From Escherichia coli (lineage in GTDB: Bacteria > Pseudomonadota > Gammaproteobacteria > Enterobacterales > Enterobacteriaceae): a stretch of DNA of 64,000 nt. Location: NCBI RefSeq assembly GCF_013122565.1, contig NZ_CP053258.1, one strand, 5' to 3'. Below are positions 30,266 to 35,701 of this stretch, in pieces (the stretch's first letter is position 1; the number at the start of each line of letters is the position of its first letter). A program made the translations under genes and the position numbers. Below the pieces are notes generated by a model, which was not told where the DNA came from, searched no databases, and saw only the letters and a list, made by a program, of their open reading frames with translations.

Positions 30266-30742
30266 TTACGGTTTCACGTACTCGATAGCATTCACATACC
30301 AGCTCGCTTCCCCGGCAGGGGTATTCACCACCGCCAAATCGCCCACCTCTTTTTTCAACAATGCGCGAGCCATCGGGGAATCGATAGAGATGTAATCTTT
30401 ACGGCCAAAAATTTCATCGTAGCCGACAATACGGAAACGGTGAGTCACGCCGTCGTCGTTTTCAATCTCCACCCACGCACCAAAAAAGACTTTGCCTTCC
30501 TGCTGCGGGGAGTAATCGACGATTTTGAGATTTTCCATGCATTTAGTGAGATAGCGCACGCGACGGTCGATTTCACGCAGACGCTTTTTATTATACTGAT
30601 AGTCAGCATTTTCGCTGCGGTCGCCCAGACTTGCGGCCCAGGTCACCTTTTTTGTGACCTCCGGGCGTTCTTCACGCCAGAGATAATTAAGCTCTTGTTT
30701 GAGTTTTTCATACCCTTCCCGGGTAACCAGGGGCGTTTTCAT
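30266..30742 (-). CDS. greB: transcript cleavage factor GreB
   Basis: MKTPLVTREGYEKL...; 158 aa. Confidence 0.95.
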   Translation of the reverse strand: MKTPLVTREGYEKLKQELNYLWREERPEVTKKVTWAASLGDRSENADYQYNKKRLREIDRRVRYLTKCMENLKIVDYSPQQEGKVFFGAWVEIENDDGVTHRFRIVGYDEIFGRKDYISIDSPMARALLKKEVGDLAVVNTPAGEASWYVNAIEYVKP

Positions 30743-30969
30743 CTCGTTGATTCCCTTTGTCTGTTTGATAATGCGCACATTGGGTATAACGTGATCATAT
30801 CAACAGAATCAATAATGTTTCGCCGAATAAATTGTATACTTAAGCTGCTGTTTAATATGCTTTGTAACAATTTAGGCTGAAATTCATACCAGATTTAGCT
30901 GGTGACGAACGTGAGCTTTTTTAAGAATACACGCTTACAAATTGTTGCGAACCTTTGGGAGTACAAACA

Positions 30970-33038
<2,069 letters not shown>

Positions 33039-33040
33039 AT

Positions 33041-33070
33041 AAAACGGGAGGCGAAGGTGCCTCCCGTTTT
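33041..33070. terminator. bidirectional intrinsic terminator (aaaacgggaggc gaaggtg cctcccgtttt)
   Basis: Perfect stem with A-run and T-run flanks; abuts envZ stop and the stop of the minus-strand antitoxin gene. Confidence 0.75.
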
Positions 33071-33366
33071 TAGATTGTTTTCAATTGATTGATAATGAAA
33101 GGATTCGCTTGCAAAAGCAGGAGCAATTTTCGAGGTGCTCCGGTAGGTTGACGGCGTTTGGTTTCCCAGCTTTTCACCAGGTCATAACTTACCCCTACGG
33201 CGACAGCAAAATCTTGCTGACGTAAACCCGTTGCTTCACGGATCGCTTTTACATCGATCTCGCTAAAAGTATGGACGTGCTCTGGTTCAGGCGTTTCTTC
33301 ACCCTTTTCGATGCGTACCATTTCTTCTGTGCTGGCAAGAAGATCAGCAAATAATTCATCTTTCAT
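33070..33366 (-). CDS. HTH (XRE-type) antitoxin, HigA-2-like
   Basis: 98 aa; immediately downstream of the toxin gene. Confidence 0.75.
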   Translation of the reverse strand: MKDELFADLLASTEEMVRIEKGEETPEPEHVHTFSEIDVKAIREATGLRQQDFAVAVGVSYDLVKSWETKRRQPTGAPRKLLLLLQANPFIINQLKTI

Positions 33367-33424
33367 CTGTTTTCAATGTCTCCGTTGGCATTTCGACCAT
33401 GGTGAAATTTGTGGAGCTTCAACA

Positions 33425-33742
33425 TTAAAGCAGCTTCTCGGACAATAGTTTCAATGCCTTTCTTTGTTCTTCTGTTAAATCATCCTGTTCATTTTTAGGA
33501 TAAATCAACGCCAGATAAATTCGGCCATTGCGTGTTACGTTGTAATAAATTATCCGAATGCCACCCCTTTTCCCCATTCCAGAACGGTTCCAGCGAATTT
33601 TTCTAAAACTGCCTGTGCCTGCGATAATGTCACCGGCAGTGGGATCTTGAATGAGTAGTTCCTGAAAAGCCCGGAACTCATCATCAGGTAGTAATAACTG
33701 GCGGCGTTTGCTAAATCCTTGTAGTTCAATAAAGGTGAACAT
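33425..33742 (-). CDS. HigB-2-like (Gp49/RelE-superfamily) toxin
   Basis: 105 aa; FRKIRW..GKRGGIRIIYY..YLALIYPKNEQDDLTEEQRK resembles Vibrio HigB-2; toxin-first gene order. Confidence 0.75.
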   Translation of the reverse strand: MFTFIELQGFSKRRQLLLPDDEFRAFQELLIQDPTAGDIIAGTGSFRKIRWNRSGMGKRGGIRIIYYNVTRNGRIYLALIYPKNEQDDLTEEQRKALKLLSEKLL

Positions 33743-33817
33743 AATGCATCCTGCGGTCTATTGATAATTATAAGTGTACCGTGTACATATTGGTAGCTAA
33801 TTAGATATAAAAAAACC

Positions 33818-33841
33818 CCTTATCCGTTTGGATAAGGGGTC
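33818..33841 (-). terminator. pckA intrinsic terminator (ccccttatcc gttt ggataagggg + T-tract on minus strand)
   Basis: Inverted repeat and T-run. Confidence 0.7.
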
Positions 33842-33858
33842 AATGAGATATCAGCTGA

Positions 33859-35481
33859 TTACAGCTTCGGACCAGCCGCTACCAACGCGGCACCCGCTGG
33901 GGTGTCGGTGTATTTATCGAAGTTGTCGATAAACAGTTTCGCCAGCGTTTCAGCTTTTTCCTGCCACTGTTCCGGGGAAGCGTATGTGTTACGCGGATCG
34001 AGAATCTTCGTGTCTACGCCCGGCAGTTCTGTTGGGATCGCCAGGTTAAACATCGGCAGAGTGAAGGTTTCTGCGTTATCCAGCGAACCGTTGAGGATGG
34101 CGTCGATAATAGCACGGGTATCTTTGATGGAGATACGTTTGCCAGTACCGTTCCAGCCGGTGTTAACCAGATACGCCTGCGCACCTGCCGCTTGCATACG
34201 TTTTACCAGCACTTCTGCGTACTGAGTCGGGTGCAGCGACAGGAACGCCGCGCCGAAGCAAGCGGAGAAGGTTGGCGTCGGTTCGGTAATGCCACGCTCA
34301 GTACCGGCCAGTTTGGCGGTGAAGCCAGAGAGGAAGTGGTACTGGGTTTGATCGGCAGTCAGACGAGAAACCGGTGGCAGCACACCAAAGGCGTCTGCGG
34401 TCAGGAAGATAACTTTAGTTGCGTGGCCCGCTTTGGAAACCGGCTTAACGATGTTATCGATGTGATAGATCGGATAAGAAACGCGGGTGTTCTCGGTTTT
34501 TGAACCATCATCAAAGTCGATAGTGCCATCTTCACGCACGGTGACGTTTTCCAGCAGCGCATCGCGACGGATAGCGTTGTAGATTTCAGGTTCCGCTTCT
34601 TTCGACAGCTTGATAGTTTTTGCGTAGCAGCCGCCTTCGAAGTTAAACACGCCGTCATCGTCCCAGCCGTGCTCGTCATCACCAATCAGGCGACGTTTCG
34701 GGTCGGTGGAAAGGGTGGTTTTACCGGTGCCGGAAAGGCCGAAGAACACCGCAACATCGCCTTTCTCGCCAACGTTGGCGGAGCAGTGCATAGAAGCGAT
34801 ACCTTTCAGCGGTAGCAGGTAGTTCATCATTGAGAACATCCCTTTCTTCATTTCGCCGCCGTACCAGGTGCCGCCAATCAGCTGCATGCGCTCGGTCAGG
34901 TTAAACGCCACGAAGTTTTCGGAGTTCAGACCCTGTTCTTTCCACTGCGGGTTAGTGCACTTCGCGCCGTTCATAACGATAAAGTCTGGTTTGAAACCTT
35001 CCAGCTCTTCATCGCTCGGGCGAATAAACATGTTTTTGACAAAATGCGCCTGCCAGGCCACTTCGGTGATGAAACGAACGGAAAGACGCGTGTCCGGGTT
35101 CGCACCACAGAAAGCGTCGACAACGAACAGACGTTTGCCGGAAAGCTGTTTGGTCACCAGGCCTTTCAGATGCTGCCAGGTTTCCGGAGAGAGAGGTTTG
35201 TTGTCGTTCTTACCTTTGCCTTTGTCTGCCCACCAGAAAGTATCGCGAGTGGTATCGTCACGGACGATATACTTATCTTTTGGTGAACGACCGGTGAAGA
35301 TCCCGGTATCGACGGCAACGGCACCCAGATTAGTTAACACCCCGCGCTCATAACCTGTCAGGCTCGGATCGAGCTCTTCCTGATACAGCAGGTCGTAGCT
35401 TGGGTTGTAAACGATATCATGTACGTCACTGATACCATAAGCCTCGAGTTCTTGCGGGGTCAAACCATTGTTAACGCGCAT
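33859..35481 (-). CDS. pckA: phosphoenolpyruvate carboxykinase (ATP)
   Basis: [17 protein letters not shown]...; 540 aa. Confidence 0.96.
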
Positions 35482-35701
35482 TTCACTGCTCCTTAGCCAA
35501 TATGTATTGCCTGAATAGTAAAGTCTTTTTGGGGGTGTTAACCGCGACAAGGCTCATAGATTTACGTATCTGGAGAAATTCATATTTGACAAAAAACTCC
35601 GTGATTCCTGTCACGAAACGGTTGCTATTATCGCAGAAATAGCATTTTAGGTGTGGAAAATGTTCTTAAAAGGTTAAATCTTGGTTTATATGGCGGGAAT
35701 A

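What the first reader, a model, noticed from the sequence alone, without database searches (positions are those of the whole stretch)
33039..33858. HigB-2/HigA-2-like TA cassette inserted between the envZ and pckA terminators
A toxin-first pair on the minus strand: a 105-aa protein with the GKRGG(I/S)RIIYY...IY.KNE..DL..EQRK signature of Gp49/HigB-2 toxins, then a 98-aa XRE-HTH antitoxin. From memory, envZ and pck are adjacent in K-12. The cassette sits between two strong intrinsic terminators (33041-33070 and 33818-33841), and its leader contains a GTGTAC-C-GTGTAC repeat (about 33775-33790) that may be the operator.
Basis: partly seen in the sequence, partly recalled or inferred. Interest (0 to 1): 0.55.

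Follow-up and report, generated by a model that had tools for sequence, protein, structure and literature searches.

The report
Known HigBA-2 toxin-antitoxin cassette
This is an intact copy of a known, already annotated two-gene toxin-antitoxin module (HigB-2/HigA-2 type) that about a quarter of E. coli strains, but not K-12, carry between envZ and pckA; it is ordinary.

Summary
On the minus strand there is a 105-aa ORF (33425-33742) followed by a 98-aa ORF (33070-33366), between two strong hairpin terminators, with a GTGTAC-C-GTGTAC motif in the leader.

The toxin is a clear homologue of Vibrio cholerae HigB-2: E=1.3e-23, 49% identity without gaps, and all four catalytic residues kept. The antitoxin matches V. 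cholerae HigA-2 over its full length and passes the NCBIfam NadS cut-off.

The leader motif is better read as a 13-bp palindrome, TGTAC-N3-GTACA, lying just upstream of a perfect TATAAT. The same xGTAC-N3-GTACx palindrome recurs upstream of relatives in four other genera, so it is very probably the HigA-2 operator.

The 788-bp segment replaces 44 bp of the K-12 intergenic region. It is present in 1330 of 5426 complete E. coli genomes, in all but about two at this locus. It includes the pckA-side terminator. About 8% of carriers (Nissle 1917 type) have a dead toxin plus a half-deleted operator.

RefSeq and UniRef already annotate the pair ("Toxin HigB-2"), so it is already known. I found no experimental work on the E. 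coli copy.

The parts
33041..33070 (.). Bidirectional intrinsic terminator, shared with K-12. It ends envZ on the + strand and higA-2 on the - strand. The higA-2 stop codon (33070-33072) abuts the stem.
   Evidence: -21.2 and -21.7 kcal/mol on the two strands, with a U-tract on both; the same hairpin is present in K-12.
33070..33366 (-). higA-2 (PGAP name nadS): a 98-aa antitoxin. Its N-terminal ~35 residues are the predicted toxin-neutralising segment. The XRE-type HTH lies at residues ~39-76.
   Evidence: NCBIfam NF041265 NadS, 75.2 bits against a cut-off of 60. HTH_31 and HTH_3. V. cholerae HigA-2, E=5e-5 over residues 4-94; pN 0.08 against pS 0.82 versus the Pseudescherichia copy.
33367..33424 (-). 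58-nt intercistronic spacer. It holds a GGAG (33383-33380) 13 nt upstream of the higA-2 ATG.
   Evidence: Read directly from the sequence. Function not tested.
33425..33742 (-). higB-2: a 105-aa toxin of the RelE/ParE superfamily, predicted to be a ribosome-dependent mRNA endonuclease.
   Evidence: PF06296, E=1e-5. V. cholerae HigB-2, E=1.3e-23, 49% identity, ungapped. R50/R63/Y81/K83 correspond to the catalytic R51/R64/Y82/K84 (PMC5416850); omega 0.11.
33749..33752 (-). Shine-Dalgarno AGGA, 6 nt upstream of the higB-2 ATG.
   Evidence: Read directly from the sequence.
33767..33772 (-). Predicted -10 hexamer TATAAT of the higBA-2 promoter. The -35 at 33790-33795 (TACCAA, 17-bp spacer) is weak.
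   Evidence: Read from the sequence. It aligns with TTGTTA-17-TAAAAT in Pseudescherichia. The consensus scan did not call it.
33775..33787 (.). Predicted HigA-2 operator: the 13-bp palindrome TGTAC-N3-GTACA, lying in the promoter spacer.
   Evidence: unique in the window, 0.02 expected; the same xGTAC-N3-GTACx motif lies upstream of relatives in K. aerogenes, Pseudescherichia, Y. ruckeri and K. pneumoniae. PMC11006873: the V. cholerae HigA2 operator is TGTACGC-N5-GCGTACA, between -35 and -10; one half-site is deleted in the dead-toxin Nissle allele.
33804..33841 (-). Intrinsic terminator for pckA (hairpin 33841-33814 plus U-tract). It is carried by the cassette segment and insulates the higBA-2 promoter from pckA read-through.
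   Evidence: -20.4 kcal/mol; found only in the 1330 cassette-bearing genomes, once in each.
33071..33858 (.). Whole variable segment (788 bp). It replaces 44 bp of the K-12 envZ-pckA intergenic region.

Best explanation
This is an intact chromosomal type II toxin-antitoxin operon of the HigBA-2 kind (Pfam PF06296 toxin, NadS/HigA-2 antitoxin).

By homology, HigB-2 enters the ribosomal A site and cleaves translating mRNA, RelE-like, using R50, R63, Y81 and K83. HigA-2 neutralises it through its N-terminal disordered segment, which folds on the toxin. HigA-2 dimerises through its C-terminal XRE helix-turn-helix domain. The dimer then binds the TGTAC-N3-GTACA palindrome, which sits between a weak -35 and a perfect -10, and represses the operon.

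Transcription starts downstream of a cassette-borne terminator that stops pckA transcripts. It ends at the bidirectional envZ hairpin.

The 788-bp segment is accessory DNA that moves between strains by recombination in the flanking core genes. Its identity and anatomy are shown here. Toxicity, cleavage, neutralisation and operator binding are inferred.
For: Toxin family: PF06296 is the only Pfam hit. The toxin aligns to V. cholerae HigB-2 structures 5JA9/5JA8 at E=1.3e-23, 49% identity over 98 ungapped residues. All four residues whose alanine substitution cripples VcHigB2 are conserved, as is the IIYY strand-sliding repeat (PMC5416850).

Antitoxin: NadS model above its curated cut-off. It aligns over its full length to VcHigA-2 with the same layout, an N-terminal segment followed by the HTH.

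Selection: both genes are under purifying selection versus the Pseudescherichia copy. The toxin gives omega 0.11; the antitoxin gives pN 0.08 against pS 0.82.

Operator: the palindrome is unique in the window and lies 2 bp upstream of TATAAT. The same xGTAC-N3-GTACx motif lies upstream of homologous pairs in four other genera, although the surrounding sequence differs. The footprinted VcHigA2 operator has TGTAC/GTACA half-sites in the same promoter position (PMC11006873).

Terminators.

Population: 1330 of 5426 complete E. coli genomes carry the cassette, 1328 of them at envZ-pckA. One toxin protein, WP_000493756.1, is shared by five sampled alleles.

Databases: RefSeq calls the pair 'type II toxin-antitoxin system RelE/ParE family toxin' plus 'NadS family protein'. 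UniRef calls the exact toxin 'Toxin HigB-2'.
Against: I found no experiment on the E. coli copy.

The Pfam E-value is modest (1e-5), no NCBIfam model hits the toxin, and antitoxin identity to VcHigA-2 is only 29%.

Three of the four base-contacting residues of VcHigA2 differ here (R68D, E71K, N72S). The half-site spacing also differs (N3 here against 9 bp between the TGTAC cores in V. cholerae). The operator assignment therefore rests on comparative conservation, not on transfer from the crystal structure.

The promoter scan called nothing on the minus strand, because the -35 is weak. The antitoxin Shine-Dalgarno is 13 nt from its ATG.

Relatives carry two operators, whereas E. coli carries one. 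About 8% of carriers have a nonsense mutation in the toxin, so the toxin is dispensable.
Confidence: 0.85

Rival explanations
1. The toxin is a Gp49/PF05973-type HigB, related to phage Gp49 and to HigB-1 and HigB-3.
For: It shares the RelE/ParE superfamily and the toxin-first gene order. The naming in the literature is inconsistent (PMC11980606).
Against:: PF05973 gives no hit even at E<=10; only PF06296 hits. PMC11980606 (Table 1 and text) places V. cholerae HigB-2 in PF06296 and treats gp49/PF05973 as a separate family.
Confidence: 0.02
2. The pair is mainly an anti-phage abortive-infection module. Phage infection would free HigB-2, for example through loss of the labile HigA-2 or transcription shut-off, and stop translation before phage release.
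For: Other RelE/ParE-superfamily TA modules act in abortive infection (PMC11980606). The cassette is accessory and patchily distributed (24.5% of genomes). It has been exchanged between species. Both proteins match full-length PHROG families (phrog_5869 at 1e-33, phrog_2104 at 9e-28). Relatives occur in nine records of the phage collection.
Against: No PADLOC model hits the toxin. The locus is not in a defence island, since its neighbours are the core genes envZ and pckA. No member of PF06296 is reported as a defence toxin in the papers I read.
Confidence: 0.12
3. The cassette is ancestral to Escherichia and was deleted in three quarters of E. coli, rather than being an insertion.
For: It occupies the same locus in E. 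albertii. It occurs in distant E. coli backgrounds (Nissle 1917, IAI39, LY180). Alleles differ by up to ~2.6%, so it is not a recent arrival in the species.
Against: The E. albertii cassette is 97-99% identical to the window, while the flanking envZ and pckA are 88-95% identical. That pattern indicates recent exchange, not vertical descent. Empty sites hold 44 bp of unrelated sequence and no cassette remnant. Close relatives (toxin 71-82% identical) sit at different chromosomal loci in Pseudescherichia and K. aerogenes. The same intergenic region holds a different cargo in 20 genomes.
Confidence: 0.2
4. The toxin is no longer active in this strain, and HigA-2 (NadS) survives as a stand-alone transcription factor.
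For: 106 of 1329 carriers have a nonsense toxin but an intact antitoxin. K-12 carries a solitary nadS gene that is expressed (PMC12350097). The window's antitoxin has a rare A13T change in the neutralising segment.
Against: In this window the toxin ORF is full length. It is identical in protein sequence to the dominant allele, it keeps every catalytic residue, and its operator is intact. The toxin is under purifying selection.
Confidence: 0.08

Closest known systems
Vibrio cholerae HigB-2/HigA-2 (VCA0468/VCA0469; PDB 5JA8, 5JA9, 5JAA, 5J9I, 8A0W/8A0X)
   Same: Toxin-first operon. The toxin is 49% identical without gaps and keeps R/R/Y/K and IIYY. The antitoxin has an N-terminal neutralising segment plus a C-terminal XRE HTH. 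A palindromic operator with TGTAC/GTACA half-sites lies between -35 and -10 (PMC5416850, PMC11006873).
   Different: The antitoxin is only 29% identical. Three of the four base-contacting residues differ. The operator is 5-N3-5 here, against 7-N5-7 in V. cholerae. The location is a core-gene intergenic region rather than the superintegron.
Acinetobacter baumannii plasmid pAB120 HigBA2 and other plasmid-borne PF06296/NadS pairs (Yersinia ruckeri pYR4, K. pneumoniae pKpN01-CTX, Salmonella plasmids)
   Same: Same two-gene architecture and the same PGAP names. The toxin is 38-57% identical. In the Yersinia and Klebsiella copies, GTAC-N3-GTAC palindromes lie upstream. The A. baumannii pair is toxic, autoregulated and stabilises plasmids (PMC5906591).
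   Different: Those copies are plasmid-borne and mostly carry two operators. The E. coli copy is chromosomal, has one operator and carries its own upstream terminator.
Chromosomal copies in Klebsiella aerogenes (yfhL-murR) and Pseudescherichia
   Same: The toxin is 82% (K. aerogenes) and 71% (Pseudescherichia) identical. The Pseudescherichia antitoxin is ~90% identical. The same TGTAC-N3-GTACA motif is present.
   Different: They sit at different loci and have two operators 30 bp apart. The K. aerogenes copy is flanked by perfect 44-bp direct repeats; E. coli has none.
E. coli K-12 HigB/HigA (YgjN/YgjM, PF09907) and Rts1 HigB (PF05015)
   Same: Toxin-first order, ribosome-dependent mRNases of the RelE/ParE superfamily, and HTH antitoxins.
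   Different: They belong to different Pfam families, which gave no hit here. Their antitoxin architecture and neutralisation mode also differ (PMC5416850).

Membership tests
HigB-2 toxins (Pfam PF06296 'RelE', InterPro 'Toxin HigB-2') | Match to the PF06296 profile | tested here: met
   i-E 1e-5, 26.2 bits, residues 44-104. It is the only Pfam family reported.
HigB-2 toxins (Pfam PF06296 'RelE', InterPro 'Toxin HigB-2') | Sequence homology to the structurally defined V. cholerae HigB-2 | tested here: met
   E=1.3e-23, 48 of 98 residues identical, no gaps.
HigB-2 toxins (Pfam PF06296 'RelE', InterPro 'Toxin HigB-2') | RelE-like active site (VcHigB2 R51, R64, Y82, K84) and the IIYY beta3 repeat | tested here: met
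   R50, R63, Y81, K83 and I64-I65-Y66-Y67. The roles of these residues are taken from PMC5416850.
HigB-2 toxins (Pfam PF06296 'RelE', InterPro 'Toxin HigB-2') | Toxin gene upstream of an HTH-XRE antitoxin gene | tested here: met
HigB-2 toxins (Pfam PF06296 'RelE', InterPro 'Toxin HigB-2') | Ribosome-dependent mRNA cleavage and growth arrest | not testable with these tools
   Needs toxicity and cleavage assays.
HigA-2 / NadS antitoxins (NCBIfam NF041265) | Score above the curated cut-off of the NadS model | tested here: met
   75.2 bits against 60, covering residues 5-96 of 98.
HigA-2 / NadS antitoxins (NCBIfam NF041265) | N-terminal neutralising segment followed by a C-terminal XRE HTH, homologous to VcHigA-2 | tested here: met
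   E=5e-5 over residues 4-94, with the DLFAxL start conserved. HTH at residues 39-76.
HigA-2 / NadS antitoxins (NCBIfam NF041265) | Same DNA-contacting residues as VcHigA2 (R68, E71, N72, R77) | tested here: not met
   D62, K65, S66, R71, so only the last is kept. This predicts a different operator specificity; it does not argue against homology.
HigA-2 / NadS antitoxins (NCBIfam NF041265) | Palindromic operator overlapping the promoter of its own operon | tested here: inconclusive
   A conserved palindrome lies in the expected place. Binding itself was not tested.
   no hit at E<=10.
Known anti-phage defence systems (PADLOC-DB 2.0) | Match of the toxin to a defence-system model | tested here: not met
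   0 families for the toxin; only generic HTH models for the antitoxin.

The most novel reading that the evidence does not exclude
The most novel reading the evidence does not exclude has two parts. First, the E. coli/E. albertii version may be a trimmed derivative of the enterobacterial HigBA-2 cassette. It has lost the distal of two operators and gained its own upstream terminator, which could give it a regulatory set-point different from its two-operator relatives. Second, the envZ-pckA intergenic region may be a small cargo hotspot. Alternative cassettes (HigBA-2, or SMI1/KNR4 plus two unknown genes) would be swapped there by flanking homologous recombination, even across species, with the TA pair possibly serving phage defence.
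Probability: 0.2. Interest if true: 0.3.

Novelty: already known. Interest (0 to 1): 0.12.

Why it matters
It matters little beyond bookkeeping. The pair is one of the strain-variable TA loci of E. coli: absent from K-12 and inactivated in the probiotic Nissle 1917 lineage. Its family is mechanistically well understood from V. cholerae.

Three minor points are useful. The Pfam assignment is corrected from PF05973 to PF06296. There is a concrete, testable operator prediction (xGTAC-N3-GTACx), supported by comparison across five genera and by a natural half-site deletion in the dead-toxin allele. The cassette supplies pckA with a new terminator.

Tried and rejected
PF05973/Gp49 assignment: rejected, no hit.

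PADLOC defence models: nothing for the toxin. NCBIfam: no model for the toxin.

Literature on the E. coli copy or on the name 'NadS': nothing relevant. PMC12350097 only notes that a K-12 nadS gene is expressed.

An apparent degraded remnant in strain BS-04 (H30) is a homopolymer-ridden assembly artefact.

Flanking direct repeats or a target-site duplication in E. coli: none convincing. There are only short AGATAT-like similarities between the cassette ends and the K-12 spacer, which I could not distinguish from chance.

Apparent plasmid-borne close copies (100% and 82% identity) turned out to be chromosomal DNA filed as plasmids. True plasmid and phage relatives are all below 60% identical.

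The direct-repeat reading of GTGTAC-C-GTGTAC: rejected in favour of the palindrome, because relatives conserve GTAC-N3-GTAC with varying spacers and no direct 6-mer repeat.

The consensus promoter scan found no minus-strand promoter. The promoter given in this report is my own reading of the sequence.

Rfam found nothing in the region.

Full report
**What is there**

The window is E. coli chromosome, in the order tex/yhgF, greB, ompR, envZ, then pckA and yhgE on the other strand. The 820-bp envZ-pckA interval holds two minus-strand ORFs. One is 105 aa (33425..33742) and the other 98 aa (33070..33366), and they are 58 nt apart.

Two hairpin terminators bracket them. The first, at 33041-33070, folds equally well on both strands (-21.2 and -21.7 kcal/mol) and has a U-tract on each side. 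The second, at 33841-33814 on the minus strand, folds at -20.4 kcal/mol and is followed by U7. The motif GTGTAC-C-GTGTAC lies at 33774-33786.

**Identity of the toxin**

The toxin's only Pfam hit is PF06296 'RelE' (E=1e-5).

Against solved structures the toxin matches V. cholerae HigB-2 (5JA9, 5JA8, 8A0X) at E=1.3e-23, with 48 of 98 residues identical and no gap. PMC5416850 shows that R51, R64, Y82 and K84 are the active-site residues of VcHigB2, and that the 65-IIYY-68 repeat underlies the strand-sliding inhibition mechanism. Here these correspond to R50, R63, Y81, K83 and I64-Y67, all conserved. PMC11980606 confirms that V. cholerae HigB-2 belongs to PF06296 and that gp49/PF05973 is a separate family.

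**Identity of the antitoxin**

The antitoxin scores 75.2 bits on NCBIfam NF041265 'NadS', whose cut-off is 60. It has an XRE HTH at residues 39-76. It aligns over its full length to V. cholerae HigA-2 at E=5e-5 and 29% identity, including the N-terminal DLFAxL segment that neutralises the toxin in V. cholerae.

**Selection**

Compared with a diverged copy from Pseudescherichia, both genes are under purifying selection. The toxin gives omega 0.11. The antitoxin gives pN 0.08 against a saturated pS of 0.82.

**Regulatory anatomy**

Read on the minus strand, the leader is: terminator hairpin, U-tract, TACCAA (weak -35), 17 bp, TATAAT (33772-33767), AGGA (33752-33749), then ATG.

The 17-bp spacer contains A-TGTAC-ACG-GTACA-C (33787-33775). 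This pattern is unique in the 64-kb window, where 0.02 copies are expected by chance.

The same xGTAC-N3-GTACx palindrome lies upstream of homologous pairs in four other genera, usually twice and 28-30 bp apart:
- K. aerogenes: TGTAC-CTG-GTACA and TGTAC-CCC-GTACA.
- Pseudescherichia: TGTAC-TGG-GTACA and TGTAC-TTA-GTACA.
- Y. ruckeri pYR4: TTCGTAC-TCA-GTACGAA, twice (second spacer TGA).
- K. pneumoniae pKpN01: AGTAC-CAC-GTACT and AGTAC-GTG-GTACT.

The spacers and flanking bases vary between these sites. What is conserved is therefore the palindrome, not a direct repeat. E. coli and E. albertii keep only the promoter-proximal site.

The footprinted V. cholerae HigA2 operator is TGTACGC-N5-GCGTACA, lying between -35 and -10 (PMC11006873). 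The half-site core and the position match; the spacing does not. Three of the four base-contacting residues also differ here. I therefore treat operator binding as a well-supported inference, not a shown fact.

The consensus promoter scan called no minus-strand promoter. The promoter described above is my own reading of the sequence.

**Population and origin**

The cassette is present in 1330 of 5426 complete E. coli genomes. It is always chromosomal, and 1328 of the carriers have it in one piece between envZ and pckA.

K-12 and most other genomes have a 75-bp intergenic region with only the shared bidirectional hairpin. In the window, 44 bp of that region are replaced by 788 bp, at 33071-33858.

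The 63 bp that contain the pckA-side terminator occur only in cassette-bearing genomes, once in each. The cassette therefore supplies pckA with a new terminator, which also insulates the TA promoter from pckA read-through.

Twenty genomes carry a different 2.7-kb cargo (SMI1/KNR4 plus two hypothetical proteins) in the same interval. It has the same limits, namely the envZ hairpin and the pckA stop codon.

E. albertii has the cassette at the same locus. There it is 97-99% identical to the window, while envZ and pckA are only 88-95% identical. This points to recent exchange by flanking recombination.

Close relatives sit at other chromosomal loci in Pseudescherichia and K. aerogenes. The K. aerogenes copy lies between perfect 44-bp direct repeats. 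More distant relatives, below 60% identity, are common on plasmids: 900 records, mostly from Acinetobacter, Ralstonia, Klebsiella and Salmonella.

**Decay**

In Nissle 1917 the toxin has a nonsense codon (E22*). The same allele has a 7-bp deletion of 33774-33780 that removes one operator half-site, while the antitoxin is intact. This allele is found in 106 of 1329 carrier genomes. That is probably a single lineage event, so it is only weak support for a link between the operator and the toxin.

The window allele is intact. Its toxin protein is identical to the dominant WP_000493756.1. Its antitoxin carries a rare A13T change that is seen on 10 other contigs.

**Prior knowledge**

RefSeq/PGAP annotates the pair as 'type II toxin-antitoxin system RelE/ParE family toxin' plus 'NadS family protein'. 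UniRef names the exact toxin sequence 'Toxin HigB-2', and it occurs on at least 1000 contigs. A related E. coli HigB2 is used as a structural example in PMC11980606. I found no paper that characterises the E. coli envZ-pckA copy.

**Verdict**

This is a real, intact and already annotated member of a mechanistically well-studied TA family. Interest is low.

Noticed in passing
L016 (E. coli Nissle 1917), corresponding to window 33679-33682 and 33774-33780: The toxin has an internal stop (E22*). The same allele has a 7-bp deletion (GTGTACC) that removes one half of the predicted operator. The antitoxin is intact. 106 of 1329 carrier genomes share this allele.
   Followed up: yes
L003 3430-6089 (E. 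coli WL297); same envZ-pckA interval as window 33071-33858: Twenty E. coli genomes carry a different 2.7-kb cargo here: an SMI1/KNR4 family protein plus two hypothetical proteins. It is bounded by the same envZ hairpin and the pckA stop codon, so the interval is a small variable hotspot.
   Followed up: partly
L018 2342-2385 and 3203-3246 (Klebsiella aerogenes NCTC10006): The K. aerogenes copy of the cassette (toxin 82% identical) lies between yfhL and murR. It is flanked by perfect 44-bp direct repeats that include the 3' end of murR. Such a long duplication suggests integration by a single crossover or by template switching rather than by a transposase. No equivalent exists in E. coli.
   Followed up: partly
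L004 (E. albertii) against window 30700-35600: The cassette is 97-99% identical between E. albertii and this E. coli, while the flanking envZ and pckA are 88-95% identical. This implies recent interspecies transfer of the intergenic segment.
   Followed up: yes
L006 2520-2560, L018 2415-2460, L019 500-545, L009 505-550: Relatives carry two GTAC-N3-GTAC palindromes 28-30 bp apart upstream of the toxin. E. coli and E. albertii have only the promoter-proximal one, and the terminator hairpin occupies the distal position.
   Followed up: yes
window 33175, 33330, 33405, 33568, 33692, 33885: At six positions the window differs from all seven other sampled alleles, including E. albertii. One of them (33330) gives A13T in the neutralising segment of the antitoxin. 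That exact antitoxin protein exists on 10 public contigs, so this is a real but rare lineage.
   Followed up: partly
L002 1590-2100 (E. coli BS-04, NZ_CP172819.1): In this assembly the envZ-pckA interval is filled with long homopolymer runs and annotated as 'hypothetical protein'. It looks like an assembly or consensus artefact of the same cassette, not a biological remnant.
   Followed up: yes
PLSDB records NZ_OL790696.1 (4.8 Mb) and LR134122.1 (568 kb; L018): Both are filed as plasmids but carry chromosomal core genes (for example era-recO-pdxJ-acpS). Their 'plasmid-borne' close copies of the cassette are therefore chromosomal.
   Followed up: partly
window 3137-3179 (+): Rfam ES036 (CssrF) sRNA match at 39.4 bits, just above the gathering score of 37.6. 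It is the only Rfam hit in the window.
   Followed up: no
window 33799-33808 and 33842-33851: Imperfect 10-bp direct repeats (AATTAGATAT and AATGAGATAT) flank the pckA-side terminator hairpin and resemble GATAGATAT in the K-12 spacer. This may be a trace of how the segment was assembled, or it may be chance.
   Followed up: no
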